64,000 nucleotides of DNA from an uncultured Candidatus Rokubacteria bacterium. GTDB taxonomy: Bacteria; Methylomirabilota; Methylomirabilia; Rokubacteriales; CSP1-6. Under the pieces are notes generated by a model. That model did not search any database, was not told where the DNA came from, and saw only the letters and a list, made by a program, of their open reading frames with translations. Positions 2,144-19,642 of this stretch are shown piece by piece (position 1 is the first letter of the stretch; each line of letters begins with the position of its first letter). Where the stretch lies: NCBI GenBank assembly GCA_963771355.1, contig CAVYTA010000001.1, forward strand, positions 193,376 through 257,375. Reading direction: 5' to 3'. A program made the position numbers and the translations under genes.

Positions 2144-2173
2144 AAATCTCAAACCAACGGGAGGAGGAAAAGC

Positions 2174-2357: not shown

Positions 2358-2394
2358 ACCTTCTCTGCGGTGCCCTGCACCATTGGATGCCACC

Positions 2395-2793
2395 ATGAAA
2401 CTAGTGCGAAAGCTCGTCAATAGCCGCGGGACGTCGACCCTCGAGTTCGTGGTCGTACTCCCGGTGCTCCTTTTCGTTCTCTTCTCGATCGTGGAGCTGA
2501 GCCGGGCCTGGCTCACGCTCAATCTGGCCACCGCCGCCGCGCGCGAAGGCGTGCGCGCGGGCGTCGTCGCGCCGGCCGACTCGGTGAGCACGGCGGGCGA
2601 TGCCAAGATCAATTCGATCCTCGGCAACGGCACGTGGACGGGCGGTGTCACCTGTGCGGCGTCCCCCTGTGCGCCTGACCAAGTCGTGTCAGCCACGGTC
2701 ACGCTTCAGTTCCAGACCGTCGTCCCGCTGATCCTTCCCGCGATGTTCGGGAACATGAACATCACCCAGACCGCATCCATGCGGTACGAATAG
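2395..2793 (+). CDS. tadE: TadE-like minor pilin
   Basis: MKLVRKLVNSRG|TSTLEFVVVLPVLLFVLFSIVEL...AAAREGVR, a typical TadE motif. Confidence 0.9.
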   Translation: MKLVRKLVNSRGTSTLEFVVVLPVLLFVLFSIVELSRAWLTLNLATAAAREGVRAGVVAPADSVSTAGDAKINSILGNGTWTGGVTCAASPCAPDQVVSATVTLQFQTVVPLILPAMFGNMNITQTASMRYE

Positions 2794-2805
2794 GATCGTG
2801 CAGCC

Positions 2806-3726: not shown

Positions 3727-4181
3727 GCCCCGTGCTCGGCGCACTCCTGCTCGGCCTCGCGATGCTGCTCGGCGCGGCGGTGGGATCGGCCGGCGCCCAG
3801 GAGCCGTTCGCGCTCTTCGTCGCCTCGGACCAGGCCAATGTCCTCACCGTGGGTCCCGATCCACTGACGAAGGTGGTGGTCGCGAATCCCAATGTGGCGG
3901 ACGTCCAGGTGCTCAACCCGACCCAGCTCCTCCTCACGGGGAAGGCCGTGGGCCGGACCTCGCTGCTCCTGATCTTCGCCGGCAACAAGCAGCGCCAGTA
4001 CGATCTCGTCGTCCACCCTGGTGCCGCACTGCCCTCGACGTCGGCTCCGGTGAGCCCGGAGCCGCATTCGGTCCTCGTGCATCGGGGCGAACAGGTGAGC
4101 CAGCGCTTCTTCCTGCGCGACAAGTCAGAACTCTGGATCGAGCTGGGCACGGTGAAGGACGCCGAGCCCGTGAAGAAGTGA
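3723..4181 (+). CDS. Stand-alone pilus-formation/secretin N-terminal domain protein
   Basis: Signal peptide, then KVVVANPNVADVQVLNPTQLLLTGKAVGRTSLLL, paralogous to the N-domain of the adjacent secretin. GTGA overlap with cpaB. Confidence 0.8.
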   Translation: MSPVLGALLLGLAMLLGAAVGSAGAQEPFALFVASDQANVLTVGPDPLTKVVVANPNVADVQVLNPTQLLLTGKAVGRTSLLLIFAGNKQRQYDLVVHPGAALPSTSAPVSPEPHSVLVHRGEQVSQRFFLRDKSELWIELGTVKDAEPVKK

Positions 4182-5640
4182 ACCAGACGATGGGACGGAA
4201 AGGCGATCGAATGCGCTATGCGGCCGGGCAGGGGTGGGCACGAGTCATGGTGGGGCTCCTGCTGGGAGTGCTGGGCCTCGCGATGGGCGCGCTGCCCGCG
4301 CACGCCAACGAGCAGGGGGTCATCCGGCTCGAGGTCACCATCGGGAAGTCGCAGGTCGTAGAGCTGAAGGAGCCGTTCACGCGGGTCTCGGTGACCAACC
4401 CGGCCATCGCAGACGTGTTCGTCGTCACTCCCAACCAGATCCTGGTGAGCGGCAAGGCGGTAGGGACGACGTCCCTCATCGTGTTCTACCCGCGCCAGAC
4501 GGTCTTCTTCGATCTCCTGGTGCAGACGGACCTCGCGCTGCTGCGCGAGCGGCTCAAGCACGTCGCGCCCAAGGACGAGATCGAGGTTCAAGCCGCGCAG
4601 GAGTCGCTCATCCTCACGGGGACCAGCACGAGCGAGCAGGTGATGGCGGGGGCGATCGAGGTGGCGTCGGTATTCGCGCCCAAGGGCAAGGTGATCAGCC
4701 TGCTGAGCGTCACTGACGTCAAGCCCCAGCAGGTGCTCGCTGCAAGTCCATGTGGCGGAGGCCACGCGCGAGGCGCTGAGAGAGCTCGGCTTCAGCATTC
4801 GTGCCTTCGGCGACACCCTCCAGGCGGCCGCAATGCCGGGCAACGCCTTTTTCCCGGGCCTGGGCACCCTGGGCGCGGTCGCCGCGCGGGGATTGGCCGA
4901 CTATGCGGTCGGCCAGAACACGCCGGAATTCGCGTTCCCCGGGAGCAACTTCTTCCTGTCCTCGGGGGCGCGGGATTACGCCGGGCTGGTTCGCGCCCTC
5001 GCCGAGCGGAACCTCTTCCGCACGCTCGCGAAGCCGAACCTCATCACCCAGAGCGGCAAGCAGGCGAAATTCATTTCCGGGGGTGAGTTCCCGTACCCGG
5101 TCGCTCAGGAGGGACAACAGGGTCACGATCGAATTCAAGGAGTTTGGCATCGGGCTGCTCTTCACGCCGGTGGTCGTCGACGGCGACACGATCAACCTCA
5201 AGCTCAGTCCCGAGGTCTCGAGCCTCGACTTCAGCCAGGGCCTCGTCTCCGCCGGCTTCAGCATCCCCGTGATCCGGAAGAACCAGGCCGCTACCAATGT
5301 CAGCCTGAAAGACGGCGAGACCTTCGCGATTGCCGGCCTGATCAACAACGAGGTGCGCCAGGCGGTGGCGAAGATTCCGCTCCTGGGGGACATTCCGATC
5401 CTGGGCGCGCTCTTCCGCAGCGCGCGCTTCCAGAACAATGAGACCGAGCTCCTGTTCCTCGTCACCGTGAAGGTCGTGAAGCCCGAGCCGGTGGGCTCGC
5501 CTGGCGTTCCCGAGGCCGCCAAGATGCTCGAGCTTCGCCCGAAGGAGAAGTCCGAATTCACCCTTCTCCCGGGGATCCCGGGCGTCGGCGAGGTCATGGA
5601 CCGCCCATTCGGCCAGAGCGGCCTTCCGACCCCAAAGTGA
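4178..5640 (+). CDS. cpaC: Tad secretin RcpA/CpaC; two apparent +1 frameshifts (~4739, ~5111)
   Basis: Three consecutive frames join into the N-domain (RVSVTNPAIADV...GKAVGTTSL), QQVLLQVHVAE, LAKPNLITQSGKQAKFISGGEFPYPV, TIEFKEFGIGLLFTP and KIPLLGDIPILGALFRS...ETELLFLVT. Confidence 0.92.
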
Positions 5641-5653
5641 CCCAGGCCTGACC

Positions 5654-6886
5654 ATGCCCAACGTGCTCCGTATCGTCGTCGTCGACTCCGATCCCGAGTC
5701 CCGATCCTCCCTGCGCAAGATCCTGGGCGGGACGCCGGGAGCAGTCGTGGTGGGGGAATTCGGTGAAGTCCGGCAAGCGATGCTCGAGACCCCGGATCGC
5801 CGCCCGGATCTTCTGCTCATCGAGGTGCCGTCGCCGGCCGCGGGCCGGGACGGCGACGCCTCCGGCGAGACCATCCGGAAGTTCGCGGAGGCGCTGCCCG
5901 AAGCGGCCATCCTGGCCATGGGAACGGACGTCTCGGCCGAGACCGTGATCAAGGTCATCCGCGCGGGAGCCTTCGAGTTCCTTCCCCGGCCGGTGGAGCG
6001 CGGCGACCTGACGGCGGCGCTCGAGAAGATCACGCGCGTGCGGCGGGGACCGGCGCCGAACGCCCGGAAGACCGGCCGCGTGGTCTCGGCGTTCTCGACC
6101 AAGGGTGGTCTCGGCGTGACCACGGTGGCGATCAACCTCGCGGTCTGCCTGGCCGAGAAGGCGCCGGACAACACGCTCCTGATCGAGCTCGACACGCGGC
6201 AGTCCGACATCGCGACCTTCCTCGACTTGCGCCCGACCTACTCGGTGCTCGACGCCTTCGAGAACATCGACCGCCTCGATGAGTCGTTCCTCCGCGGGCT
6301 CCTCACGCGGCACTCGAGCGGGCTCTGGGTGCTGCCCGGCCCGCTCCGGATGGAGCGGACCCAGCTCAACGGGGAGCAGGTCAGGGCCGGGCTCGAGATC
6401 ATCCGCTCGCACTTCGACAACGTGGTGCTCGACCTCCGGCACGACACCTCCCCGGGGACCTTCGCGGGGCTCGAGGCCTCCGACGCGATCATGTTCCTCA
6501 CCAGCCTCGAGGTCTCGGCGCTGCGGTCCGGTGCGGCCGGGCTCGCCGGGTTCCGTCTGCTCGGGCTCGATCCCCACAAGATCAAGGTGGTGGTGATGCG
6601 GGAGGACACGGGCGAGGACGTGACCCTGAAGCACGCCCGCGAGGCCCTCGGCGTACCCGTGTACTGGCGGACACCCAGCGACTATCAGGCGGTGGTATCG
6701 GCGATCAACTCGGGCAAGCCCGTGGTGACTGCCTCCCCGCGCTCGAAGTTCGCTCGCAACCTCAGACAGCTCGCGGACATGCTCACCGCTGCCGGGCCCG
6801 GGCCCAAGGGGGGCGCGCCCGCCTCGAAACGTTCGACCTCATTGCTGGGGATGGTCTGGAATCCCAAGAGCCTCCCAGGAGCGTAA
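5654..6886 (+). CDS. cpaE: CpaE/TadZ: receiver-like domain plus MinD/ParA-like ATPase
   Basis: N-terminal receiver fold (IVVVDSD...RAGAFEFLPRP), deviant P-loop STKGGLGVTT, located between the secretin and tadA. Confidence 0.9.
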   Translation: MPNVLRIVVVDSDPESRSSLRKILGGTPGAVVVGEFGEVRQAMLETPDRRPDLLLIEVPSPAAGRDGDASGETIRKFAEALPEAAILAMGTDVSAETVIKVIRAGAFEFLPRPVERGDLTAALEKITRVRRGPAPNARKTGRVVSAFSTKGGLGVTTVAINLAVCLAEKAPDNTLLIELDTRQSDIATFLDLRPTYSVLDAFENIDRLDESFLRGLLTRHSSGLWVLPGPLRMERTQLNGEQVRAGLEIIRSHFDNVVLDLRHDTSPGTFAGLEASDAIMFLTSLEVSALRSGAAGLAGFRLLGLDPHKIKVVVMREDTGEDVTLKHAREALGVPVYWRTPSDYQAVVSAINSGKPVVTASPRSKFARNLRQLADMLTAAGPGPKGGAPASKRSTSLLGMVWNPKSLPGA

Positions 6887-6889
6887 TAC

Positions 6890-8260
6890 ATGGCACTTTT
6901 CCAGCGACGGCGCGGCCCCGAGCCCGCCCCGGTTATGACGACGACGAACGGCGCCGCCCGCGAGCCCCAGCGCGCCGGTGAGTCGGCGTACTTCGACCTC
7001 AAGACCCGGATCCACCGCCAGCTCATCGAGCGCCTCGACCTGACGAAGCTCGCCCTGCTGCCCCACGAAGCCGTTCAGCAGCAGATCCAGCGCATCGTGG
7101 AAGACATGCTGGCGACCGACGACACGCCGCTGAGCCGGCAGGAGCGCGAGCAGCTCGTGGTCGAGGTCCAGCACGAGACCTTCGGCCTCGGCCCCATCGA
7201 GCCGCTCATGCAGGACCCGACGGTGTCCGACATCCTCGTCAACGGGCCCCGCTCCGTCTACGTCGAGCGACGCGGGAAGCTCGAGCGCACCCGCGTCGTC
7301 TTCCGCGATGACACGCACCTCCTCCAGGTCATCGAGCGCATCGTGTCGGCGGTGGGCCGGCGCGTGGACGAGTCGTCCCCCATGGTGGATGCGCGGCTGC
7401 CCGACGGCTCGCGTATCAACGCGATCATCCCGCCGCTGGCCCTGGACGGCCCCGTGCTCTCGATCCGCCGTTTCGCGGTGGACCCGCTCAAGACGGAGGA
7501 CCTGCTCGAGCTGGGCACCTGGACGCCCGCGCTGTCCGAGATCATCCGGGCCGCGGTCAAGTCCCGCCTGAACATCCTGATCTCGGGAGGAACGGGCTCG
7601 GGGAAGACGACCCTCCTCAACGTCATTTCCGAGGCCATCCCGAACCACGAGCGCATCGTCACCGTGGAGGACTCGGCCGAGCTCCAGCTCCAGCAGGAGC
7701 ACAAGGTCCGTCTCGAGACGCGCCCGGCCAACGTGGAAGGGGCCGGGAACGTGACCCAGCGGGACCTCGTGCGCAACGCGCTCCGGATGCGGCCCGACCG
7801 GATCATCCTCGGCGAGGTGCGCGGGGCCGAGGTGCTGGACATGCTGCAGGCCATGAACACCGGCCATGACGGCTCGCTGTCCACCGTGCACGCGAACTCG
7901 ACCCGTGATGCCCTGGCCCGGCTGGAGACCATGATCCTACTCTCGGGGATCTCGCTCCCGGTGCGGGCGATGCGCGACTATATCGCATCGGCGCTCGACG
8001 TCGTGATCCACCTCTCCCGGCTGAGCGACGGAACCCGGAAGATTCTCCGGCTCACCGAGGTCGTCGGCATGGAAGAGGACGTGGTGACCACCCAGGACAT
8101 CTTCGTCTTCGAGCAGGAGGGCATCGACAAGGACGGCAAGGTCATCGGTTACCACCGCGCCACCGGGGTCCGGCCGAAGTTCGCCGACCGTCTCCGCCGG
8201 GCCGGCATCGAGCTGCGCCCGGACATGTTCGACCCCACCAAGCGCCAGGCGACGCGCTGA
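6890..8260 (+). CDS. tadA: Tad pilus assembly ATPase TadA/CpaF
   Basis: [63 protein letters not shown]. Confidence 0.97.
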
Positions 8261-9198
8261 TGCCGCTGGTCGTTGCTGCGCTGACCTTTCTGCTCGTGGT
8301 GGCCCTCATCGCCGGCATCACCTGGTCCTTCGAGGGCACCCGTCGTCTCCGCCAGCGTCTCGTGGCGGGGTCGTCCGCGGGACTAGGCGTCGAGGGCGAT
8401 CTCCTCCGGGTCGAAGCGGGACGTGGGGCCGATGGGGAACCGCGCCGGGCCGCCCTCCGCGATCGTCTGGCGCGCCTTGCCGACCAGGCGGGCTATCCCG
8501 CACTGGCCGATACCATCTTCCTCTATATCGGCGGCTGTGCCTTCCTCGGCTTCTTGCTGGGATTGATGCGGACGGGCGAGCTCATCTGGGGGATCGGGGC
8601 GGCCGCCGTCGTGGGCTCCGCTCCTCTCGTGTTCCTCGCCTGGAAGCGGCAGAAGCGCATGCAGCAGTTCGAGACACAGTTCCCCGACGGGCTCGACGCC
8701 ATGGCGCGCGCCATCCGAGCCGGAAACGCCCTCAGCACCGCTATCCAGCTCGTCGCTGAAGAGATGGCCGATCCCATCGGGGGCGAGTTCCGCCGGGTAT
8801 TCGAGGAAACGAAGCTCGGCATGGATCCCGGCGAGGCGCTTTCACGGCTGTCCGAGCGTACGCCGACGGACGACGTCCGTTTCTTCTGCACCGCCGTCGC
8901 CATCCAGCGCGGCTCGGGCGGGAACCTCGCGGAGATTCTGGACCGGCTGAGCGAAGTGATACGCGAGCGTTTCAGGATCCTGAGCCATGCTCGTGCCCTG
9001 TCGGCCCAGCATCGCTGGTCCGCCATCTGTGTGGGGGTCAGCCCGGCGGCCTTCGCGCTCATTCTCGAGCTGCTGAACCCCGGGTACTTCACACCCATGA
9101 TGGAGTCCCCCCTGGCGCCGCTGCTCCTCGGCGCGGGCTTCGTCATGGAGGCCATCGGCTTCCTCATGGTATGGCGCATCGCCAAGATCAAGGTATGA
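8260..9198 (+). CDS. tadB: Tad inner-membrane platform protein TadB
   Basis: QFPDGLDAMARAIRAG...GGNLAEILDRLSEVIRER (T2SSF domain). Confidence 0.93.
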   Translation: MPLVVAALTFLLVVALIAGITWSFEGTRRLRQRLVAGSSAGLGVEGDLLRVEAGRGADGEPRRAALRDRLARLADQAGYPALADTIFLYIGGCAFLGFLLGLMRTGELIWGIGAAAVVGSAPLVFLAWKRQKRMQQFETQFPDGLDAMARAIRAGNALSTAIQLVAEEMADPIGGEFRRVFEETKLGMDPGEALSRLSERTPTDDVRFFCTAVAIQRGSGGNLAEILDRLSEVIRERFRILSHARALSAQHRWSAICVGVSPAAFALILELLNPGYFTPMMESPLAPLLLGAGFVMEAIGFLMVWRIAKIKV

Positions 9199-9205
9199 GA
9201 CGAGC

Positions 9206-10141
9206 ATGAACCCACTCACGTACGCGATCGTCACCTTCGTCGTGGTGCTCGGGGTCACTCTCGTCAGCGCGCTGATCATTCTGCGGCTCTGGCCGGCAAT
9301 CGGACGTGACCGGCTCACTCCGGCGACCACGGCAGGCGGGGCCGAATCGATCCTGCGATTCGGGAACGAGCCGGCGACGGGGCTGCAGCGCACCATCGAG
9401 AAGATCGGCCGGAACGTCATCCCGAAGGACACGGTTCGACTCACACGCTACCGGACGCGGCTGGCGCAGGCCGGCATCCACGATCCCCGGGGCGTCGCCG
9501 TTCTCTGGGGCGCCAAGCTCGTCTGCGCGCTGATCGGGCTTTTCGCCTATCCGTTCTTCGGCTTTCTCGTCCAGCGGCTGCTCTCGAACATGCTGCTCAT
9601 ATCGCTCGCCTGCTTTGCGGTCGGGTTCCTCCTCCCGGACTTCTGGCTGTACAACCGGATCAAGGAGCGGCAGCGGGCGATCCTGAACACGCTGCCGGAC
9701 GTGCTCGACCTCTTGATGGTCTGCGTCGAGGCCGGGCTGGGCTTCGATTCGGCGGTGGCCCGCGTGGCCGAGCAGGAGGAGCTGGAGCGGAGCCCGCTCC
9801 ACCAGGAGCTCATGCGCATGCACCTGGAAGTCCGGGCGGGACGCCCGCGCGAGGAAGCCCTGCGCTCGCTGGGCGACCGCTGCGGCATCCAGGAAGTGCG
9901 ATCGATGGTGAGTGCGTTCATCCAGTCCGATCGGCTCGGCACGCCGCTCGGCAAGACGCTGCGTGTCCACGCCGAGTCGGCGCGCGTCCAGCGCCGGCAC
10001 CGCGCGGAAGAGCGGGCGTCCCTCGCGCCGCTGAAGATGATCTTCCCCACCGTGCTGTTTCTCATGCCGGCGTTCTTCCTGGTGGCGATGGCCCCCTCTC
10101 TCCTCGGCCTCATCAAGTCGTTCAGGAGCCTAGTACAATGA
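9206..10141 (+). CDS. tadC: Tad inner-membrane platform protein TadC
   Basis: LPDVLDLLMVCVEAGLGFD...IQSDRLGTPLGKTLR...KMIFPTVLFLMPA. Confidence 0.93.
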   Translation: MNPLTYAIVTFVVVLGVTLVSALIILRLWPAIGRDRLTPATTAGGAESILRFGNEPATGLQRTIEKIGRNVIPKDTVRLTRYRTRLAQAGIHDPRGVAVLWGAKLVCALIGLFAYPFFGFLVQRLLSNMLLISLACFAVGFLLPDFWLYNRIKERQRAILNTLPDVLDLLMVCVEAGLGFDSAVARVAEQEELERSPLHQELMRMHLEVRAGRPREEALRSLGDRCGIQEVRSMVSAFIQSDRLGTPLGKTLRVHAESARVQRRHRAEERASLAPLKMIFPTVLFLMPAFFLVAMAPSLLGLIKSFRSLVQ

Positions 10142-10743
10142 CGCAGCCCCTGGCCTCTCTCGTGCGAGTCGGTGCCGTGCTGGTCTCATGCCTTGCGCTC
10201 TGGGCCACGCCGTCGGCGGCCCAGGACACGAGTGCGGAGGTGCGGACCTGGGCCGGTCAGTCCTGGCGCCTGGCGCAGCCCTCCCTCGAGATCTTCTACA
10301 CGATCCCGGCGCCGGCCAAGGGCGCCACCGAGTCGTATGGCGCGGCCCCGGCCGGCGGCGCGGGCACGGCGGGTAAATCGTCGCTATCCATGTCCGGTTC
10401 GGTCCAGGCGCTGGAAAGCTTCTTCGACTCGGGCGCGGAGCCGCGGCAGGGACGCCGCCAGGCCGAATACATCACCATCCGTCGCGGCGCGGTCGAGACG
10501 CGGCTGCCGCTCGCGAGCATCACGAGCCTCACGTTCACGCGGCAGCCGGTCTCGAACAGCTCGTTGCCGCCCTACCTGGTCAGTCGGCACTTCCGGTATG
10601 CCGCGACCGCGGTCATGACCGACGGCTCCCGGCTCGAGGGGGACTACATCAATCTCGGAACGCTGATCCTCCGGGGCCAGACGGCCGAGGGCCGCCTGGA
10701 CATCTCGTGGGAAGACATCGAGTCCGTCCGCTTCCAGCGCTAG
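10138..10743 (+). CDS. Secreted hypothetical protein
   Basis: Signal peptide ending SAAQ, beta-rich body, ATGA overlap with tadC. Confidence 0.7.
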   Translation: MTQPLASLVRVGAVLVSCLALWATPSAAQDTSAEVRTWAGQSWRLAQPSLEIFYTIPAPAKGATESYGAAPAGGAGTAGKSSLSMSGSVQALESFFDSGAEPRQGRRQAEYITIRRGAVETRLPLASITSLTFTRQPVSNSSLPPYLVSRHFRYAATAVMTDGSRLEGDYINLGTLILRGQTAEGRLDISWEDIESVRFQR

Positions 10744-10762
10744 TGACGAGGAGAACTACGTT

Positions 10763-11982
10763 ATGAGACTTCAATGGCTGCGTGACCGGCTGCACAACGA
10801 GCGAGGCAGCGTTCTCCTCTTCACGTTCACGCTGCTCGTTTTCCTGCTGGTGATGGGCGGGTTCGCGATGGACTTCGCCTTCCAGGCCGCCGCGCGCACC
10901 GAGCTGCAGCGGAGCATCGACGCCGCCGCCCTCGCCGGAGCCGGCAAGCTCGGCTTCGACGATACGGTGTTCCCCACCGCGCGCGCGTTCGCCCGTGACT
11001 ACGGGACCCGGAACCCCACTCGAACCGGTCCGGTGACCCTCAGCCTCAATACGCCCAATGATCCGGCCGGCAACATCGTGCTGGGTAGTCTGGAACGCGG
11101 GGAGCTTCAACCCGTCGCTCGCGGGCAACCAGGTCAACGCGGTCCGCTGCCAGATCCAGACCACGATCCCGACCTCGTTCCTGCGGCTGCTCGGAGTCAA
11201 TGACCTGCCCATCGCGGCCAACGCGATCGCCGTGTCCAACCCGCCGGCGCTGCCGGGGTGCGGCACGCCGATCCTGCCCATCGCGGTGACCCCCTGCGCG
11301 TTCTACGATGCGGGGACCGGGACAGTTCAACAACAGCAATGGCTGCGGCACCGGCCTGACCTGGATCTCGAGCAACCGGATCTGCGACAACTCGCCCGGC
11401 AGCGCGCAAGTCGTGCAACTCCGCGGCCTGGGCCAGTCTGGACGGTACCAACTGGACCAACGCTCAGCACCAGGGGGCCATCACGAACGCGGGCCTCGAC
11501 GAACCCGGCGTGCAATGCCACGGCGCCTGCCGGCACCAATACCTATCTCGACAACGGGATGGTCCAGCCGACCTTCAACCTGCTGCGCAATACCTTCGTC
11601 GCCGAGCGGACCTCGACCCTGGCCGGTGGAGACATCATGAAGATCGTGAACGGGATCTCCCGTCGTGGCGTACCCCGCCTAGTCGGGGGGCTGGGAGGTC
11701 GGCGTCATGATGGTGCAGAGCGCCTGCTCCGCCGGGGCCACTGACCGGCACGAGTCAGATCCCAACTACAGCAAGTTCGTGGTGACCCAGATCTTCGACC
11801 AGAACGCCGGCTGCGTCGTCTCGCCGAACATGGATCCGCAGGCGGCGGCCTATTGCGGCACGTCGGACCCCAGCCTCCGCGCGGTGTTCGGCTACTTCCT
11901 CTGCGACACTCTGGGCCAGGTGGCGACCCTCGACCCGGTTCCGCGCTCGGCTCTCGCGACCAGGCTCAGACTGGTTCGGTGA
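10763..11982 (+). CDS. tadG: TadG-like Cys-rich pilin/tip adhesin, broken by several apparent +1 frameshifts
   Basis: NERG|SVLLFTFTLLVFLLVMGGFAMDF...ELQRSIDAAALAGA (Tad domain). It continues by +1 shifts (~11087, ~11320, ~11410, ~11492, ~11657-11680 and later) through NAVRC..IPTSFLRLLG, ILPIAV and the C-terminal TRLRLVR. Confidence 0.8.
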
Positions 11983-12368: not shown

Positions 12369-14853
12369 ATGACTGATCCGGGCCCCGCCTCTCATGGGCA
12401 TCCCGAGCCTTTGCCCATCGACACCGGGCGGGGCTCCCCAGCAGTGACGCGCGGCATCTGCATGTCGGGCTCGCTCGCAGTCCACGTCGTCGTGCTGGGC
12501 CTCATTGTCTGGCTCGTGAGCGTCCCTCCGGGAATGAGCGCTCTGGAGGTCTTCCCCGCGCAGGGGTCGCCGAGCCTGCTGAGCGAGGCGGCTCCTCCCG
12601 AGCCAGCACCGTCCACGCCCGTGGCGCAGCCGAGGCGAGTCGCGCCCTCGCGGGTGGACACCCCGGCAGCACCGCTGCCAGCCCCCGACCCCCGGTCTCC
12701 CACCGTGTCTCCCGACCCTCCGGCTCCCACCGCATCTCCCGATCCCCCCAAGCCGGCGATCGCCACGCCGCCGCCCGCGGCACCCGTCCCGCCGCCACCG
12801 GTCGCCCTCGCCGCCGCCGCCCGCGGCGCCTGTCCCGCCGCCACCGGTCCCCTCGCCGAGGGTTGAGCAAGCCCCGACTTCGCCGCCCCTGACCTGGTCC
12901 ACGCCAGAGCCGCCAAGAGAGCGAATACCGGCGGTTCCGGCAGAGCCGGAGGGCGGGACCACCCGTGGCTCCATGCCCGACGGGCCCTCGATTCCGCCAC
13001 CCCCCATGAAGCCCCGGGAGACCGAAGCGACTGCGGCTCTTCCCGTGCCTTCCCCGGCCCGACCGGCCGAGACAGTACGACCCGCGGAGGCTCTTCCGCC
13101 CGTCCCGAGGGCTCCACTGGCGGAGCCGGCGCCGTTGGCGGCTTCAGGGGAGCTCGTTGCGCGCGAGAGGCCCACGCCCGATCCGCCAGCGGCCGAGGCC
13201 GCGCCACGCCCCTCTCCCCCGGAGCCGATACCGGCGCCCCGGGTGGTTGCCCCTCCGCCCGCTGCCGTTGCGCAGCCTCAGGCGCCCCCGACGCCCGCTG
13301 CTCTCCCGCCAGCCCCCGTGCCCGTCGCGCCATCGCCCGTGATCGCCGCCGTGCCACCAGCGCCTCCCGCGGCACCCACCGAAGTTCAGGCTCCGCCGGT
13401 GCAGGCGGTACCCGCGCCGGTTGCTCCCGCGGCGCCGGTGGCGCCGATGCCCACACCGGTGGCCAGTGCGCCAGCTCCGGTACCGCCGGCCCCGACGGCC
13501 GTGGCCCCGGCACCAGGCCCAGTAGCCCCCGCGCCGGCGGCGCCCGCTGCGCCGGTGGCCTCGACGCCCGCACCCGTGCCCGCTGCGCCGGCGGCGCCCG
13601 TGGCCCCGGCCCCGGTGGCGATGGCTCCAGCACCAGGCCCCGTAGCTCCCGCGCGGCCGCAGGCTGCGCCGACGGCTCCGGTCGCCTCGGCACCGGTGGT
13701 GGCGGCCCCGGCCCCCGGGCCTGTGATCCCGGCACCGTCGGTCGGTGTTCCCACGCCTCCCGCCCCCCCTTCGGTCCCGCCCCGCCCCCCAGCGAGCGCC
13801 CCGACGGGCTCCCCCGTTGGGGTCGGCCTCGCGCGCGCCATCGTCCAGTTCCACGGCCCGCGTCACCGGGTCACGGAACGGGCCGTCGAGCCGCTGGCGG
13901 GACGGATCATCGGACCGTCGCCGGACCGGTTCACGCTCTACGTGAATGGCAGCCCACAACCGGTCACGGTGGAGGGCCGGAGCTTCGAGGCGTCGGTCGC
14001 GCTGTCGCCCGGGCTGAACCGAGTACGGGTAGTCGCGATCGGATCCGACGGCGTCGAGACGGAGGACTCGGTCACGGTGGAGTATGTCCCGCCGGTGCCG
14101 AAGAGCCAGATCGTGCTGCTCGCTCCCGCCGACGGATCGAGGCTCTCGCCCGATGACCCACCCTTCGTCGTGGTCGAGGGGAGGGTGGATGACAAGAGCA
14201 TCGGGAGCGTGTCGGTCGTGGTGAACGGCCGCCAGACCGTGGTCCCGGTCCGGGAGGGCCGGTTCCGGCACATCGCTCCCGCGACGGAACCCATCCTCAA
14301 GATCTGGGCGGAGGGCGCGGCGGCTGACGGCGTCAAGCAGCGAAGCGAGGCCGTCACCGTCTACGCGGAGGCGCCGGCCGGGTCGATCGGAATCCTCGTC
14401 GTCGACTGGCCTCCGCTCCTCGCCGGCGACCAGGTCGAGGTCAGCGGAAGCTGGAGAGGGGTTCCCGATAGAGTCGATGTCCCGACGCAGCCGCTGACCT
14501 TGAGAAGCGGAGGCGCGGCACCAAGTGGCGGGCGCCCGGAGGTGTTCTACCTGCGCAATCTCCGGCCCGGCGTCTACACGTTCGTCCTCCGCTACCGTAC
14601 CCCCCAGGCCGCCGGCGTCGCCCAGCCGGTTCTGTATCTGAGCGTCGGCGGCACGCTGGTGCCGCACGTGCTCAAGCCCGTGCCGATCCAGGGCACCGGC
14701 CGGGCGATCGTGGCGAAGGTCCTGCTACCCCAGGGTATTCTCTGGGAGCAGGACGACTGGTTCTCGGGACGCAGCGAGAGCGCCGAGACGGTGACGAAGT
14801 TCCGCCTGCCCGAAGGGATCACGTGGACCGAGCGAAAGAGCGACCTCCGTTGA
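12369..14853 (+). CDS. Membrane-anchored Pro/Ala-rich protein with C-terminal Ig-like domains (TonB/TolA-like N-terminus); +1 frameshift at ~12804
   Basis: TM segment GSLAVHVVVLGLIVWLV, then more than 400 aa of Pro/Ala-rich linker, then beta-sandwich-like repeats (FTLYVNG...SFEASVALSPGLNRVRVVA; VVVEGRVDD..VSVVVNG). The extra G is evident from the local repeat ccaccggtc(g)ccctcgccg versus ccaccggtcccctcgccg. Confidence 0.75.
13300..13800 (+). repeat. Degenerate coding repeats (PVAPAAP / APAPGPVAP)
   Basis: APAPGPV recurs near 13501, 13621 and 13701 with synonymous codon variation. Confidence 0.75.
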
Positions 14854-15740
14854 CGGCGGCTCTGCTCGCCGCCCAGGCCGCGGACGGCGGCTGGGGCGCC
14901 GAATCCGGCAAGCGGAGCAATACCGAGGCGACGGCACTCGCGGTCCTGGCGCTGGGAACGTCCCCCGACCCCGCCGCCTCCACGGCGCTACGCCGGGCGC
15001 TTGCCTGGCTGGTCGAGCAGCAGCGGCCGGACGGAGGGTGGCCTCTCGGAGTAGGGCACGACCAGAGCACCTGGCCGACTCCGCTGGCCGTTCTTGCCGT
15101 GCTGGGCCGGCCGGAGCTCCGCGATCGTGCCGTGGGGGGGCTCCGCTGGCTGGTCGGGCACGCCGGGATCGATCCCGGCTGGCTCATCAGGGTGCTCTAT
15201 CGAGTCTGGCCGGGCGCGCTGCCGGTCCGGATGAATCCCACCCTCAAGGGCTGGTCCTGGAACCCCGACGCCTTCAGCTGGGTCGAGCCCACGGCATACG
15301 CCCTGCTCGCGCTCAAGAAGGGACGCACCGTCCTCTCCGGACCGGACGTGGACGCCCGCATCCGGGAAGGCGAGGCGATGCTCTACGATCGCGTGTGCGA
15401 GGGCGGGGGCTGGAACTACGGGAACACGAACGTGTACGGCGTCAACGTCGCGCCCTACCCCGAGGTCACCGCGGTGGCTCTGCTCGGCCTCCAGGACCGG
15501 CGCGAGACGCCGGTCAACCGCTCGAGCGTCGAGGCGATGCGCCGGATGCTCCCTGAGGTGGATTCCGGCTTGGCGCTGAGCTGGGTCATCGCGTGCCTGG
15601 CCGTTCACGGTCAGGACACGGGCGCGGAGCGTCGGCGGCTGGCAGAAAGCTACACGCGGACGGGCTTTCTCGGCTCCACCCCGAGCCTCGCCCTGGCGCT
15701 CATCGCGTCGGGCTCACCCGAAAGGGTGTTCGGGCTGTGA
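14850..15740 (+). CDS. Prenyltransferase/squalene-oxidase repeat (QW-motif alpha/alpha barrel) protein
   Basis: LLAAQAADGGWG...TEATALAVLAL; WLVEQQRPDGGW; GWSW...SWVEPTAYALLAL; GGWNYGN...YPEVTAVALLGL. TTGA overlap with the upstream gene. Confidence 0.85.
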   Translation: MTAALLAAQAADGGWGAESGKRSNTEATALAVLALGTSPDPAASTALRRALAWLVEQQRPDGGWPLGVGHDQSTWPTPLAVLAVLGRPELRDRAVGGLRWLVGHAGIDPGWLIRVLYRVWPGALPVRMNPTLKGWSWNPDAFSWVEPTAYALLALKKGRTVLSGPDVDARIREGEAMLYDRVCEGGGWNYGNTNVYGVNVAPYPEVTAVALLGLQDRRETPVNRSSVEAMRRMLPEVDSGLALSWVIACLAVHGQDTGAERRRLAESYTRTGFLGSTPSLALALIASGSPERVFGL

Positions 15741-16732
15741 GCGGTCCCATGACGCGCCGGCACTTTCTCGGCGCGGCTGCCGCGGCGTCCGCCGCGGCCG
15801 GCTGCGGCCGGACGCCGGGCTGGGATCGCGCGGCCTATCGGAAGGCCGAGCGCTCGCGGGTCGCCATCCTCTCGGCCCGGGACTACGCGGTGCCGCTGAC
15901 GGACGTGGTGCTCCAGGGCATCCGGCAGTTCCGCCTCCCCGTGGTCGGGCGGAAGATCGTTCTCAAGCCGAACCTCGTCGAGTTCGACCCCGCGGGAGTG
16001 ATCAACACCCACCCGGCCGTCATCGCGGCCGCGGTGGAGGCTTTTCGCCGACTCGGCGCGCGCGAGGTGGTCGTCGCCGAGGGCCCGGGCCATCGGCGTG
16101 ACACCGAGCACCTCGTTGCCGCCTCCGGACTGTTCCGCACCCTCACGGACCTGGGCGCCCGGTATGTCGACCTCAATCACGATGACGTGCGGGCGGTGAC
16201 GCTTCGCAGCCAGTTCACCACGCTCGGCCGGCTCCACCTGCCCGAGACCATCCTCGGCGCGGACCTGATCGTCTCCATGCCCAAGCTCAAGACCCACCAC
16301 TGGGCGGGGGTGACGCTGTCGCTCAAGAACATGTTCGGGATCGTGCCGGGCATGATCTACGGCTGGCCGAAGAACGTCCTCCACTGGGCGGGCATCCATG
16401 AGAGCGTGGTCGACATCAACAGCTCGTTGCCGGCGCCCCAGTTCGCCATCGTCGACGGCATCGTCGGAATGGAAGGCAATGGCCCCATCCAGGGCGATGC
16501 GAAGCCGTGCGGCGCTCTCGTCTTCGGCGACGACCTCGTGGCCGTCGACGCGACGGCAGCGCGCCTCATGAGCATCGATCCGCGGAAGATCAAGTACCTC
16601 CAGCACGCGGCCCAATTCCTCGGGAACATCGAGTACGAGCAGATCGCGCAGATCGGCGAGCCCCTGGAGTCCCTGCGAAAGGAGTTCCGTGTGATTCAGC
16701 AATTCGAGAGCCTGAGAGGTGCCGGTGGCTAG
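15737..16732 (+). CDS. DUF362-domain protein with Tat lipoprotein-like signal
   Basis: MTRRHFLGAAAAASAAAGC; IVLKPNLVE, NTHP, SMPKLKTHHWAGVTLSLKNMFG, IVDGIVGMEGNGP, DLVAVDA. GTGA overlap. Confidence 0.9.
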   Translation: MSGPMTRRHFLGAAAAASAAAGCGRTPGWDRAAYRKAERSRVAILSARDYAVPLTDVVLQGIRQFRLPVVGRKIVLKPNLVEFDPAGVINTHPAVIAAAVEAFRRLGAREVVVAEGPGHRRDTEHLVAASGLFRTLTDLGARYVDLNHDDVRAVTLRSQFTTLGRLHLPETILGADLIVSMPKLKTHHWAGVTLSLKNMFGIVPGMIYGWPKNVLHWAGIHESVVDINSSLPAPQFAIVDGIVGMEGNGPIQGDAKPCGALVFGDDLVAVDATAARLMSIDPRKIKYLQHAAQFLGNIEYEQIAQIGEPLESLRKEFRVIQQFESLRGAGG

Positions 16733-17450
16733 CCGGCGCTCGCTCCTCGTGCTGCCGGTCCTCTTCGTCACCCTGCTGGGGGCGGCGCCGGGAGATCTCA
16801 ACGAAGCGGGCAAGAATGCCTATCAGCGGGGCGACTTTGCGGAGGCCGAGCGCCTCTTCACTCAGGCCTTGGCCCGGACGCCCAGCGACCCCTTGCTCCA
16901 CTACCACCGCGGCGCCGCTCTCACCCGGCTCGGACGCATCCGTGAAGCTACCGCCGCCTACGAGACGGCTCTGCGCCTGGATCCGCCGCCGGCGGTGGCC
17001 GCGGCGGCGCGGGACGGCCTCCGCGCCATCGGTGCGCTGGGCGCGCCCTCTCGACCCCGGCGGTCCGCCGATGAGACGGTCATTGCGCTGACGCGGATTC
17101 CGGGCGGCTGGCTGACCGAGGTCGTCGTCAACGGCGCGTGGACCGGGCCCCTCTTGCTGGATACGGGAGCGAGCGTGACGCTCGTCTCCCCCGCCGTGGC
17201 CCGCGCCGCCGGGATCTCGATCGGTCCCGACACCCAGATGGTAGAGGTCCAGGGGATCGCCGGCCGCACGCGTGGTCCCATCGTCACTCTGTCCTCGATC
17301 CAGGTCGGGGAGATCGAGGCGCGCGGGGTGCGCGCCGTGGTCGTCGAGCTTCCCATGGGATTGAACGGTCTGCTCGGCAACTCCTTCCTGGCCCGCTACA
17401 CCTTCACCCTCGATCCGCGCGAGGGAGCGCTCCGGCTGCAGCCTCGATGA
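16719..17450 (+). CDS. Exported TPR plus retropepsin-like aspartyl protease
   Basis: Signal peptide, TPR helices (AYQRGDFAEAERLFTQAL...YETALRLDP), catalytic LLDTGAS and GLLGNSFL motifs. Confidence 0.88.
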   Translation: MPVASRRSLLVLPVLFVTLLGAAPGDLNEAGKNAYQRGDFAEAERLFTQALARTPSDPLLHYHRGAALTRLGRIREATAAYETALRLDPPPAVAAAARDGLRAIGALGAPSRPRRSADETVIALTRIPGGWLTEVVVNGAWTGPLLLDTGASVTLVSPAVARAAGISIGPDTQMVEVQGIAGRTRGPIVTLSSIQVGEIEARGVRAVVVELPMGLNGLLGNSFLARYTFTLDPREGALRLQPR

Positions 17451-18769
17451 CGGGCGTCTCCGGCGCCGAGATGAGACCTCGTCTCCTCTCGGCGCTCGGC
17501 CGGACGGCGGTCATGCTCGCGTGTCTCGCGCTGCTCGGCTGGAATGTGGCGCTCGTCGTCGTGATGGAGCGGGGGATCGTCCGCAGCGACTTCGGGAAGC
17601 TCCACGCTTCCGCCCAGGCTTTTCTCGCCGGTCGCGACATGTATGACCTGGGGCCGGCCACGCTGAGTCCGGTGCGCGGGATGACCGATCAGGTCCTCCA
17701 CTACATCCCGTTCCTGAACCTCAACCCGCCCCACTTCCACCTCATTCTCCTGCCGCTGGCGCCACTCTCCCCTCGCTGGGCGCTCGTCGTCTGGGGCATC
17801 GTGAGCCTGGTCTGCCTGGCGTTCTCGCTCCGCCTCATCGCGCGTGAATCCGGTATCGTCCTGACCCGGTGGCGGCGCCGGCTCGCGGTGCTGGCCTTCC
17901 TGGGCTTCGCGGGGCTCGGGGCGGTAGCGCTGACCGGGCAGGTTTCATTCCTCCTCCTCCTTCCGGTGACGCTGGCGTGGATCCGCGCTCGAAGGGGGAA
18001 ATGGGCCGAGGCCGGCGTCTATCTCGGCCTGGCCATGAGCGTCAAACCCTTCCTCGCCATCTTCCTGCCCTATCTCGTCCTGCGGCGTCGGTTCGTCACG
18101 CTGGCGACCGCCGTTGGCGCGGGAACAGCGGCGTTCCTGGTCGGACTGGGCGTGTTCGGGTGGGACGCGCACCGATCGTGGATCGCCGGGCTCTCGGCGG
18201 TGAGCTGGGAGTGGGTGGCCATGAACGCGTCCGTGCTCGGCTTCCTCAAGCGCGTGCTCGCGCCGAGCCTGTACTACGAGCCGCTGCTCGAGGTGCCGGG
18301 GCTCATCGCGCCGGTCTGGCTTTTACTGTCCGGCGCCATCGGGGTCGTGACCCTCGCGGTGGCCGCCGCCGACTCGGACGAGCGGGCCGTCGACCGGGCC
18401 TTTGCCTTGCTCCTTCTCGCCGCCTTGCTGGTCTCGCCGCTCGGCTGGACGTATTACTGGTGGCTCGCACTGGGCCCGATGGTGGCGGTCGTCGCCTCCC
18501 GGTGGGGGCGGGATGCCCGGGATGCCCACGTGGAGCGGTGGCCGGCCTCGAACACGAGATGCTGGCGCCGCGCGTTGCTCCTCGTCGCGGTGCCGGGGCT
18601 GTTCTGGCCCTTGCCCGCGACCATTGCGTTCCAGCCGAGCGCCTGGGCGACGGTGTTTCTTGGTTCCGCGTACTTCTGGGCCACGCTGGCGCTCTGGGCC
18701 GCGTTGATCGCGGATTGGCGCGTGGCCGGCGGCCGCCTCAGTGCGGTCGCCGCCCTGCTGCGTCGCTAG
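17447..18769 (+). CDS. GT87/DUF2029-like polytopic membrane glycosyltransferase (GT-C)
   Basis: SDFGKLH...GRDMY, NLNPP, TGQVS, LAMSVKPF, NASV, LLVSPLGWTYY; about 10 TM segments; ATGA overlap. Confidence 0.85.
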   Translation: MTGVSGAEMRPRLLSALGRTAVMLACLALLGWNVALVVVMERGIVRSDFGKLHASAQAFLAGRDMYDLGPATLSPVRGMTDQVLHYIPFLNLNPPHFHLILLPLAPLSPRWALVVWGIVSLVCLAFSLRLIARESGIVLTRWRRRLAVLAFLGFAGLGAVALTGQVSFLLLLPVTLAWIRARRGKWAEAGVYLGLAMSVKPFLAIFLPYLVLRRRFVTLATAVGAGTAAFLVGLGVFGWDAHRSWIAGLSAVSWEWVAMNASVLGFLKRVLAPSLYYEPLLEVPGLIAPVWLLLSGAIGVVTLAVAAADSDERAVDRAFALLLLAALLVSPLGWTYYWWLALGPMVAVVASRWGRDARDAHVERWPASNTRCWRRALLLVAVPGLFWPLPATIAFQPSAWATVFLGSAYFWATLALWAALIADWRVAGGRLSAVAALLRR

Positions 18770-19443
18770 GAACGAGGCGCGGCCTGGTACTCGCGGAGCT
18801 GCTCCTCGGTGCGGGAGCTGCCTCGGCGCCAGACCCATTTGATGTAGGAGCGAACGTCGGGCGCGTACCAGTACTCGTTGCGATCGCCCTGGTCGCTCTC
18901 GTGCACTATCTTGAGCGCGGTGAAACGTCCCGCGGGGACCTCGACGACCTCGGACCCGAGGACGATGAAGGTGCCAGTTCGCTCGACGGCCCCGCTCGGG
19001 TCCTGGAGGGTCCCACGGTACGTCCATTGTCGTCCCGGCTCCAGCGGCCAGGTGAACCAGGGCAGCGGAGGACTCATCCGGCTCTCGATCTTCCGCTCGC
19101 GGGCATGTCCGGCCCACTGCAGCTGGGTGTTGTAGAAGTGCTCGAGCTCGCCGACCCGGACGATGTAGAAGAGGGCGCTGTTGATGTCCCGGATCTCGAC
19201 GACCTCGACGGTCTTGGTGCCGTGCTCGGTGCCGAGCAGCAACCCGTAGAGCCACCGGTCGCCTGGACGCCAGTCCGGGGCGGCCCGGGAGGCGGCGACC
19301 GTCTTGAAGGTGGAGTCGAGTGACGCCGGCTGGCTCGGCGGCGGCGCACCGGGTCGGAAGACACTGCATGCCTCGAGCACGATCCCGAGCGTCGAGGCGA
19401 GGAGCGCGAACCGTGCCACTCTCGTGAAACTCCGTCGCGTCAC
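18766..19443 (-). CDS. Putative lipoprotein with beta-rich domain
   Basis: Lipobox-like IVLEAC; PDWRPGDRWLY, WPLEPGRQW, EVVEVPAGRFTALKI, YWYAPDV motifs. Start uncertain. Confidence 0.75.
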   Translation of the reverse strand: MTRRSFTRVARFALLASTLGIVLEACSVFRPGAPPPSQPASLDSTFKTVAASRAAPDWRPGDRWLYGLLLGTEHGTKTVEVVEIRDINSALFYIVRVGELEHFYNTQLQWAGHARERKIESRMSPPLPWFTWPLEPGRQWTYRGTLQDPSGAVERTGTFIVLGSEVVEVPAGRFTALKIVHESDQGDRNEYWYAPDVRSYIKWVWRRGSSRTEEQLREYQAAPRS

Positions 19444-19642
19444 AGGCGGATGATCGCACGGCGGTTCGCGCCGGCGCAACGTTGTGGTTGGCGGGTAGCT
19501 CGCGGGGCCCCGGCGGTGCCGAAAACACCCATGAGCTTCCCGTGTCGCGTGTTAGAAGTATTTCGGTAGGGACCCCGGGCGCGGGTCGGTCGGGACCCGG
19601 GGCCCGGCCGCCGCGGCTAACCCTGAAAGGGAGGAAGTCGAC

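What the first reader, a model, noticed from the sequence alone, without database searches (positions are those of the whole stretch)
14850..18769. Translationally coupled enzyme tail on the tad operon: prenyltransferase-repeat + Tat DUF362 + TPR-aspartyl protease + GT87
Seen: four enzyme genes chained to the Pro-rich gene by overlaps (TTGA 14850-53, GTGA 15737-40, a 14-nt overlap at 16719-32, ATGA 17447-50), on the same strand as tad with no evident terminator. The DUF362 protein has a twin-arginine lipoprotein-type signal, implying export of a folded, possibly cofactor-loaded protein. The QW-repeat protein has no signal and might be co-exported. Inference: an undescribed extracytoplasmic pilus or envelope modification module.
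Basis: partly seen in the sequence, partly recalled or inferred. Interest (0 to 1): 0.7.

Follow-up and report, generated by a model that had tools for sequence, protein, structure and literature searches.

The report
Pilus-linked candidate nickel-pincer enzyme pair
Two of the four genes form a fixed pair that sits beside Tad pilus genes in six bacterial phyla and likely encodes an undescribed nickel-cofactor enzyme, predicted to be exported and likely to convert a lipid-linked sugar used to coat the pilus or cell surface, while the protease and the sugar transferase are separate local additions.

Summary
The four genes are real, but they are not one module. The QW-repeat barrel and DUF362 are a fixed pair: adjacent in 34 of 34 genome loci and 65 of 66 metagenome loci with room, and fused in 117 of 120 long homologues. 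The pair is tad-linked in six phyla, including 20 of 25 split planctomycete loci, three inside the operon, but 8 of 22 other loci lack tad. The DUF362 model has the lactate-racemase (LarA) N-domain fold (Z 15-17) and conserved His/Lys at the cofactor positions; 16 of 35 fused genes abut larC. It is therefore likely a nickel-pincer enzyme; cofactor, export, complex and substrate are untested. The TPR-retropepsin travels with the Pro-rich gene, and GT87 is a late addition; tad loci of relatives lack the pair. The TTG start at 14850 is probably wrong (GTG 14823). The scan noted this pair at tad loci of Acidobacteria before (e1-3949573, e1-3037650); the nickel-pincer link, fusion and larC adjacency were not in the lines shown.

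The parts
14823..15740 (+). QW-repeat (prenyltransferase/squalene-cyclase-like) single alpha/alpha barrel, 305 aa from GTG 14823, no signal peptide, no DxDD, central amphipathic helix; fixed partner of DUF362
   Evidence: Pfam/NCBIfam weak cyclase-repeat hits; model pLDDT 95.7; Foldseek top hits monodomain cyclases 8pak, 8paj, MstE and thioester domains, TM 0.5-0.6; invariant E35, W144, T157, G196-W197-N198 in 135 sequences; start
15737..16732 (+). DUF362 protein with LarA N-domain fold; likely nickel-pincer enzyme subunit (327 aa from ATG 15749; residue numbers in this report count from there)
   Evidence: PF04015 170.5 bits; model pLDDT 88.1; Z 14.8-17.0 to 12 LarA-family entries, next unrelated 6.8; K73, N75, K179, H183, K193, N194, H212 in 143 of 143 and H115 in 142 of 143
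15749..15805 (+). Twin-arginine signal (MTRRHFLG...) ending in a lipobox-like AAAGC
   Evidence: TIGR01409 over cut-off; strict RR motif in 98 of 108 split homologues against 0 of 35 fusion linkers; Cys after the motif in 71 of 108
16719..17450 (+). Signal peptide + TPR + retropepsin-type (clan AA) aspartic protease with a DTG motif; belongs to the older tad tail with the Pro-rich gene, not to the pair
   Evidence: Pfam; TIGR02281 56.2 bits, just under its cut-off of 57.95; follows the Pro-rich gene without the pair in G006 and G013
17447..18769 (+). GT87 membrane glycosyltransferase, only copy in this genome; late addition at this locus
   Evidence: PF09594; present in the tail of G000, G001, G002, G004, G007, absent from G024, G006, G013, G039
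12369..14853 (+). Pro-rich gene: N-terminal membrane segment, long Pro/Ala linker, C-terminal Ig-like region; frameshifted in this assembly (context)
   Evidence: Glucodextran_B; intact 868-aa orthologue in G004, 22% Pro; C-terminal region present in all 9 readable tails of relatives
1914..11982 (+). tad/flp operon: two flp pilins, tadE, cpaB, pilus-N protein, cpaC, cpaE, cpaF, tadB, tadC, an unknown gene, tadG (context)
   Evidence: Pfam; synteny with G002, G004, G007, G024; cpaC and tadG split by frameshifts
18766..19479 (-). Convergent gene of unknown function that closes the tail in relatives with and without the pair (context)
   Evidence: No Pfam hit; homologues in L022, L024, L025, L027, L104, L106, L109
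19920..21435 (+). Frameshifted polytopic membrane gene, likely a second GT-C-type transferase (context)
   Evidence: 80-82% identical in two frames to L027:6412-7926; that orthologue has no Pfam or NCBIfam hit; nearest named Atlas clusters STT3/PMT_2 at 0.92, a lead only

Best explanation
The QW-barrel gene and the DUF362 gene are a fixed pair, kept beside Tad pilus genes in six phyla and fused in one planctomycete group, that likely forms one two-part nickel-pincer (LarA-type) enzyme, predicted to be exported through Tat and likely to epimerise a lipid-linked sugar that membrane glycosyltransferases would then put on the pilus or cell surface. Shown: the pairing, the fusion, the tad linkage, the LarA N-domain fold of the model, the conserved His/Lys residues, the adjacency of larC to fused genes. 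Inferred, with my odds: the two proteins form one complex (0.8); DUF362 carries the nickel-pincer nucleotide on Lys193 with His212 as nickel ligand and His115/His183 as acid-base residues (0.7); the split form is loaded in the cytoplasm by LarB/E/C and exported folded by Tat, taking the signal-less barrel along (0.55); the barrel stands in for LarA's missing C-terminal substrate domain and binds a prenyl chain at the membrane (0.5); the product serves Tad pilus or surface glycosylation, as DprE1/DprE2 supply TfpW in Pseudomonas (0.35). The TPR-retropepsin is an older part of the tad tail and likely cuts the Pro-rich protein or another periplasmic target; GT87 was added later in one subgroup and would be a user of the sugar donor.
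For: Pairing: adjacent in 34 of 34 non-planctomycete genome loci with room (36 examined), 65 of 66 metagenome loci with room (80 examined), 25 of 25 split planctomycete loci; separate profile searches of the same 251 genomes gave the same 5 genomes, genes side by side; 0 of 20 loci of other DUF362 subfamilies have the barrel; 117 of 120 long homologues are barrel-DUF362 fusions. Tad link: 14 of 22 non-planctomycete loci with 5 kb on both sides, 20 of 25 split planctomycete loci; between cpaE and cpaF in L252, L253, L259, directly after tadC in L041, L042, divergent from flp in L036, L239-L242, after tadG in L033, L037 and here. Nickel-pincer: Foldseek's first 14 listed rows are LarA-family; Z 14.8-17.0, rmsd 2.9-3.6 over 208-219 residues, mostly chain residues 33-300; H183 and K193 fall on H173 and K183 of a LarA homologue that map to His174 and Lys184 of 5huq/6c1w; larC lies head-to-head with 16 of 35 fused genes; larC found in 30 of 32 pair-carrying genomes tested; this genome has larE-larB-larC. 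Sugar link: GT87 directly after DUF362 in L036 and L238 and convergent in L215; PF03901 in L235, PMT_2 in L206, GT2 and GtrA genes in L213-L215; PMT-like gene directly before the barrel in L037. Export: strict RR motif 98 of 108 split forms.
Against: No substrate evidence at all; known LarA-family reactions are on free 2-hydroxy acids (PMC11770544, passages). The profile-profile match to LarA is not significant (probability 0.9%); H115/His108 and H212/His200 are matched by eye from motif and spacing, not from a superposition, and no Arg stands at the Arg75 position. larC is common where the background was measured (154 of 251; 36 of 41), two carriers lacked it (G044, G868), and this genome has another client, an orthologue of NF052515. 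All fusions are one clade and the larC adjacency lies in one subclade, so it counts as about one event. The fused proteins have no signal peptide, so the enzyme can probably work without export. Only 1 of 25 split and 1 of 35 fused planctomycete loci had a GT-C-like gene within 5 kb, and 10 of 22 elsewhere, with queries taken from my own loci. Tad loci exist without the pair (G006, G013, G039) and the pair without tad (8 of 22; 34 of 35 fused), so it is accessory, not core pilus machinery.
Confidence: 0.35

Rival explanations
1. The pair is a nickel-pincer enzyme complex, but its substrate is a membrane lipid or prenylated small molecule (hopanoid, glycolipid head group, quinone-like compound), and it remodels the envelope where pili are made; no pilin sugar is involved.
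For: The barrel's closest solved folds are class II terpene cyclases; invariant E35 aligns with the DxDD acid position of a drimenyl-diphosphate synthase; neighbours in non-tad loci include PAP2_3 (L209, L213, L216), an acyltransferase (L203), a squalene-epoxidase-like FAD protein (L212) and UbiD (L241); GT-C genes are rare beside planctomycete pairs.
Against: DxDD is present in 2 of 135 barrels; the lipid-type neighbours differ from locus to locus, whereas GT87 recurs beside DUF362 in four phyla.
Confidence: 0.27
2. DUF362 keeps the LarA fold but uses another cofactor or none, stays on the cytoplasmic face of the membrane, and the tad link reflects shared regulation rather than chemistry on the pilus.
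Against: His/Lys residues at the cofactor positions are kept in 143 of 143; larC head-to-head with 16 of 35 fused genes; RR consensus in 98 of 108 split forms against 0 of 35 linkers; insertion inside the tad operon in three loci.
Confidence: 0.18
3. The pair acts directly on pilus proteins: it epimerises a residue or an already attached sugar on Flp/TadE/TadG pilins, or the barrel adds or holds a lipid on them.
For: Repeated closeness to flp, and to N-methyl pilin genes in tad-free loci L203 and L142; the lack of LarA's C-terminal lid would leave room for a macromolecular substrate.
Against: 34 of 35 fused loci have no tad gene in the fetched flanks; no protein-prenyltransferase among the 50 Foldseek ranks shown.
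Confidence: 0.12
4. One reading: all four genes are one dedicated module for pilus or envelope modification, inherited together with tad.
For: All four are chained on one strand here and in G001, G002, G004, G007; contigs of RNA libraries from relatives cross the Pro-rich/QW and QW/DUF362 junctions (one study, contigs only, not proof of one transcript).
Against: Three layers with different ranges: protease in 8 of 9 readable tails, pair in 6 of 9, GT87 in 5 of 9; no orthologue of the protease directly beside the pair outside this lineage's gene order.
Confidence: 0.08

Closest known systems
LarA lactate racemase superfamily (DUF2088/PF09861; nickel-pincer nucleotide enzymes; PDB 5huq, 6d6z, 9eid)
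   Same: N-domain fold; His...Lys motif with 10-residue spacing on His174/Lys184; same Pfam clan CL0471 as stated in PMC11770544 (passages read); cofactor genes present in carrier genomes and adjacent to fused genes.
   Different: About 100 residues shorter, largely without the C-terminal domain that PMC12611868 (passages read) assigns to substrate binding; no Lar_N match; no Arg75; Tat signal; fixed barrel partner; tad linkage; no activity known.
TfpW with DprE1/DprE2 and a GtrA-like protein: D-arabinofuranose glycosylation of Pseudomonas aeruginosa group IV pilins
   Same: Proposed logic: an epimerised lipid-linked sugar feeds a GT-C enzyme that modifies pilins (bioRxiv 10.1101/2020.04.19.049825, passages read).
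   Different: No sequence or fold relation of the pair to DprE1/E2 was found or tested directly; that system serves type IVa pili, uses FAD/NAD enzymes (own knowledge), and its DprE1 was found in the cytoplasm in that paper.
Monodomain class II terpene cyclases (MstE; 8pak, 8paj) and the squalene-hopene cyclase repeat family
   Same: Single alpha/alpha barrel with QW repeats.
   Different: No DxDD motif (2 of 135); TM-score only 0.5-0.6, not clearly above thioester-domain barrels; always tied to DUF362.
PerP-type retropepsin-like periplasmic aspartic proteases (TIGR02281)
   Same: Clan AA domain with DTG and a signal peptide; PerP cuts PodJ in Caulobacter (reference title seen in PMC4140852; its role in pilus assembly is recalled).
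   Different: Has an N-terminal TPR; just under the TIGR02281 cut-off; target unknown; no PodJ homology tested.

Membership tests
DUF362 (PF04015) | Profile score over the curated cut-off | tested here: met
   170.5 bits, cut-off 24
LarA family (PF09861 / NCBIfam LarA models) | Sequence match to Lar_N or a LarA model | tested here: not met
   No match; lowers 'is a LarA', not 'works like LarA'
LarA-type nickel-pincer enzymes | LarA N-domain fold | tested here: met
   Z 14.8-17.0, rmsd 2.9-3.6, 208-219 residues, on a predicted model
LarA-type nickel-pincer enzymes | Cofactor Lys184 and catalytic His174 | tested here: met
   K193 and H183 in register (the profile match itself is not significant), 143 of 143 conserved
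LarA-type nickel-pincer enzymes | His108, His200 and Arg75 | tested here: inconclusive
   H115 (142 of 143) and H212 (143 of 143) are candidates by motif and spacing; no Arg at the Arg75 position (K73, N75 invariant); no residue-level superposition was available
LarA-type nickel-pincer enzymes | C-terminal substrate-binding domain | tested here: inconclusive
   10 of 12 LarA rows end at chain residue 261-327 of 393-480; two rows reach 423; the protein is too short for the whole domain
LarA-type nickel-pincer enzymes | larB, larC, larE in the genome | tested here: met
   Operon at G000 C6:874610-877339; larC only was tested in other carriers, 30 of 32; high background
LarA-type nickel-pincer enzymes | Bound cofactor and hydride-transfer activity | not testable with these tools
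   Needs intact-mass spectrometry and assays
Class II terpene cyclases | QW-repeat alpha/alpha barrel | tested here: met
Class II terpene cyclases | DxDD general-acid motif | tested here: not met
   Absent here; 2 of 135 homologues have any D.DD; invariant E35 may take that place
Tat lipoproteins | RRxFL signal and lipobox Cys | tested here: met
   TIGR01409 over cut-off; Cys19 in at least 90% of alignment A1, 71 of 108 in the wider set
Tat lipoproteins | Export and lipidation in cells | not testable with these tools
   Needs fractionation in tat+ and tat- cells
GT87 (PF09594) | Profile score over cut-off | tested here: met
   88.4 bits, cut-off 25
TIGR02281 clan AA protease | Profile score over cut-off | tested here: inconclusive
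   56.2 against 57.95; Pfam retropepsin models are over cut-off
Core Tad machinery | Present in every tad locus | tested here: not met
   Pair absent from tad tails of G006, G013, G039

The most novel reading that the evidence does not exclude
The first nickel-pincer enzyme that works outside the cytoplasm: a DUF362 subunit is loaded with the cofactor, exported folded by Tat with a signal-less terpene-cyclase-like barrel riding along, and epimerises a polyprenyl-linked sugar in one active site (the job that takes DprE1 plus DprE2 elsewhere) to supply glycosylation of Tad pili in at least six phyla; this would also give the large DUF362 family a cofactor and explain part of the larBCE genomes without LarA.
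Probability: 0.2. Interest if true: 0.87.

Novelty: new variant of a known kind. Interest (0 to 1): 0.72.

Why it matters
PMC13524815 (passages read) counts only 12 known nickel enzymes and notes hundreds of genomes that make the nickel-pincer cofactor without a LarA. A DUF362 subfamily with the fold, the His/Lys residues and a conserved larC neighbour is a directly testable new client: one intact-mass experiment (+450 Da) decides it. Its fixed barrel partner, Tat signal and tie to Tad pili would link nickel chemistry to the cell envelope and to pilus modification in abundant, mostly uncultured soil and sediment bacteria, and cultured planctomycetes carry the split, tad-linked form (L241 lies in the genome whose record is titled Novipirellula sp. 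SH528).

Tried and rejected
Complex prediction for the pair was not available, so binding is neither supported nor opposed by a model. The VIA second look at the barrel model never ran; only Foldseek is reported for it. Sequence search of solved structures with DUF362 found nothing (1 hit, E 1.3). The promoter/terminator scan has no power at 70% GC. RNA runs are contigs of one study at mostly 88-99% identity, cannot show strand or a single transcript, and I laid no silent control stretch: weak, not counted as proof of co-transcription. My first loose RR pattern matched 108 of 108 split forms but also 4 of 35 fusion linkers; the stricter pattern is the one to use. The idea that larEBC in this genome is explained by DUF362 alone was rejected: a group-22 nickel-pincer isomerase orthologue is present. 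The GT-C neighbour count by tblastn is circular (queries from the same loci) and has no background; only Pfam hits are used as evidence. Phylum searches scored only 3-14 candidates per genome, so carrier counts (5 of 251, 4 of 201, 6 of 151, 6 of 251, 167 of 381) are lower bounds. The tree is the quick search, SH-aLRT only, midpoint-rooted, 96 rows, metagenome rows left out; no order of events was tested statistically. A tad background in the same phylum samples was not measured. Literature: DUF362 (14 papers), COG2006/PF04015/IPR007160 (13), nickel-pincer nucleotide (21), larC+tad+Flp+nickel pincer+Planctomycetes (0), Tad/Flp/glycosylation/GT-C (2, listing only), Rokubacteria+tad (listing only) showed no description of this pair; most subscription papers are not searched, and 5 supplementary files of PMC13524815 were not searched (12 were, no hit).

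Full report
Setting. The window is G000 C1:193376-257375, a 5.5-Mb, 70% GC genome; a same-genus genome carries a record title naming Rokubacteria (L029). The + strand holds a tad operon from two flp genes to tadG, a small gene, a Pro-rich gene and the four genes of the finding. cpaC, tadG, the Pro-rich gene and the gene at 19920-21435 are frameshifted against intact orthologues; contigs of related organisms lack single bases at several of these places, so these are likely assembly errors. The four genes themselves are intact.

Observation. The ORFs, domains and junction letters are as described. One detail changes: TTG 14850 is CTG in 6 of 8 close loci, while GTG 14823 is kept in 8 of 8, so the barrel gene probably starts at 14823 with a 31-nt overlap. 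Coupling and co-transcription are untested; RNA-library contigs of relatives cross two junctions, but they come from one study and cannot show a single transcript.

The tail is three layers. Among 41 genomes of this order, 11 have cpaB and 6 a full-length barrel. Nine tails could be read. G039 has the Pro-rich gene and none of the four; G006 (same genus) and G013 have Pro-rich gene then protease; G024 has Pro-rich gene, barrel, DUF362, protease; G000, G001, G002, G004 and G007 add GT87. Contigs of G005, G021 and G028 end before the tail. The simplest reading (inference, not tested on a tree) is an older Pro-rich plus protease tail, a barrel-DUF362 cassette between them, and GT87 last.

The pair is fixed. 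Barrel and DUF362 are adjacent, in that order, in 34 of 34 non-planctomycete genome loci with at least 300 bases of room (36 examined), 65 of 66 metagenome loci with room (80 examined; the exception has 648 bases) and 25 of 25 split planctomycete loci. Separate profile searches of one sample of 251 genomes (phylum of L041, titled Acidobacteria) returned the same 5 genomes. Twenty loci of other DUF362 subfamilies have no barrel. Of the 120 best long homologues, 117 are barrel-DUF362 fusions of about 640 aa without a signal peptide; those with a taxon name are Gemmataceae. In 381 genomes of the class of L067 (titled Schlesneria), 167 matched a fusion protein, and 66 listed matches span it without a stop (my count).

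The pair is tied to tad, but not strictly. Outside planctomycetes, 14 of 22 loci with 5 kb on both sides have tad genes within 10 kb. In the 17 loci newly found by phylum-wide sampling, 8 do (seven by tblastn, L214 by Pfam TadE and Tad). Gene orders differ: after tadG, directly after tadC, divergent from flp, upstream of flp on the same strand, inside the operon. With one tad locus in 5.5 Mb, chance closeness would be under 1% per locus; kin are not independent, but the link survives several rearrangements in six phylum-level groups. Tad-free settings include gatA-gatB (L038), an acyl-CoA-dehydrogenase-like neighbour (L039, L040; labels from memory) and N-methyl pilin genes (L142, L203).

DUF362 looks like a nickel-pincer enzyme. 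The model (pLDDT 88.1) matches 12 LarA-family entries at Z 14.8-17.0 and rmsd 2.9-3.6 over 208-219 residues; the next unrelated fold scores 6.8. The match covers LarA's N-domain. PMC11770544 (passages) names Arg75, His108, His174, Lys184 and His200 in LarA1 and uses DUF362 only as an outgroup of the same clan; PMC12611868 (passages) assigns cofactor binding to the N-domain and substrate binding to the C-domain. H183 and K193 align with His174 and Lys184 (the profile match has only 0.9% probability). H115 and H212 are candidates for His108 and His200 by motif and spacing; no Arg75 counterpart is seen. K73, N75, K179, H183, K193, N194 and H212 are kept in 143 of 143 full-length pair members, H115 in 142. 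larC stands head-to-head with 16 of 35 fused genes, within one subclade of a single fusion clade (SH-aLRT 95 and 98, quick tree), so this is about one event that was kept. larC was found in 30 of 32 carriers tested (20 of 20; 4 of 6; 6 of 6), but the background is 154 of 251 (one unpublished genome in that tally) and 36 of 41. This genome has larE-larB-larC, no Lar_N match, one DUF362 and an orthologue of a group-22 nickel-pincer isomerase, so the operon does not depend on DUF362 for a purpose.

The barrel. The model (pLDDT 95.7) is one alpha/alpha barrel; best Foldseek hits are monodomain terpene cyclases, closely followed by thioester domains and sugar enzymes (TM 0.5-0.6). DxDD is missing (2 of 135); invariant E35 aligns with the acid position of a drimenyl-diphosphate synthase in one of several repeat alignments. 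A central amphipathic helix (residues about 113-130) suggests membrane contact (inference). A strict RR motif occurs in 1 of 125 barrel N-termini, in 98 of 108 split DUF362 proteins and in 0 of 35 fusion linkers.

Sugar link. GT87 follows DUF362 directly in L036 (Myxococcota) and L238 (planctomycete), faces it in L215, and follows after the protease here; PF03901, PMT_2, GT2 and GtrA genes occur in L235, L206 and L213-L215; the gene before the barrel in L037 resembles PMT_2/GT39 clusters. Against this, GT-C-like genes were seen within 5 kb in only 2 of 60 planctomycete loci and 10 of 22 others, with an insensitive and circular query set. The TfpW system, where DprE1/DprE2 make a lipid-linked arabinose for pilin glycosylation (bioRxiv 10.1101/2020.04.19.049825, passages), is the model for my reading, not evidence for it.

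Mechanism. Most likely: LarB/E/C make the cofactor; DUF362 binds it; the barrel binds DUF362 and replaces LarA's substrate domain with a prenyl-binding, membrane-facing module; the split form leaves by Tat with the barrel riding along; the enzyme inverts a hydroxyl on a lipid-linked sugar by hydride transfer; GT-C enzymes use the product on Tad pilins or other surface acceptors. Pairing, fold, residues and neighbourhoods are shown; complex, cofactor, export and substrate are inferred, the last weakly (whole chain 0.35). A lipid substrate (0.27), a cofactor-free cytoplasmic role (0.18), direct action on pilins (0.12) and a single four-gene module (0.08) are the rivals.

Novelty. My searches of the held library found no description of the pair, its fusion or a function for DUF362 (PMC7583248 and PMC13524815 have no DUF mention in the main text; 12 of 17 supplementary files of the latter searched without a hit). 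The scan itself noted the pair at acidobacterial tad loci earlier. I rate it a new variant of a known kind (LarA-fold nickel-pincer enzymes), interest 0.72.

Noticed in passing
G000 C6:874610-877339 (L102, L103, L112): Complete larE-larB-larC operon in a genome with no Lar_N match; a group-22 nickel-pincer isomerase orthologue lies at C6:1866588-1867826.
   Followed up: partly
larC is in 36 of 41 genomes of this order and 154 of 251 genomes of the phylum of L040 (titled Gemmatimonadota), while Lar_N is over cut-off in only 16 of 41: many unexplained cofactor makers.
   Followed up: no
window 1914-19479; L104:17756-18262; L106:17869-18357: This tad locus has no A24 prepilin peptidase; the genome's only PF01478 match is at C6:2109765, whereas G006 and G013 have one on the opposite strand after the protease, where GT87 lies here.
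   Followed up: partly
window about 4739, 5113, 11192-11499, 11654, 12806, 20495: Frameshifts in cpaC, tadG, the Pro-rich gene and the GT-C-like gene; relatives are intact, so likely assembly errors.
   Followed up: partly
window 12369-14853; L023: The Pro-rich protein has an N-terminal membrane segment with a Ser-x-x-x-His pattern like TonB/TolA anchors (recalled) and an Ig-like C-terminal region; it is in all nine readable tad tails of this order.
   Followed up: no
window 11979-12335: A small ORF with a signal-like start overlaps the tadG stop (GTGA); G004 has a 113-aa ORF at the same place, but tblastn found no match between them at E 1e-5.
   Followed up: partly
window 19920-21435; L027:6412-7926; L041:605-2284; L208; L215; L216: An unnamed family of about 500-aa polytopic membrane proteins without Pfam or NCBIfam hit recurs near tad loci and the pair; Atlas leads point to PMT/STT3-like transferases.
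   Followed up: partly
P0392; L217:7738-9225: One long homologue joins DUF362 to an FAD oxidoreductase (PF01593), and the same kind of gene faces DUF362 in L217; the join may be a sequence error.
   Followed up: no
L283-L302: Other DUF362 subfamilies of this order keep the His...Lys-Asn motif but lack H115 and the barrel; some also have RR signals (L283, L285, L286, L294).
   Followed up: partly
L031 / G001: The record title says Verrucomicrobiia although the genome is placed in the window's own genus.
   Followed up: no
L033, L034, L037 and several metagenome loci: A SurA-N plus DsbA-like thioredoxin gene sits between tadG and the pair in these loci.
   Followed up: no
L105:203-9001 (G006): Very long ORFs downstream of the G006 tad locus that look like a Tc/RHS-type toxin region (label from memory).
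   Followed up: no
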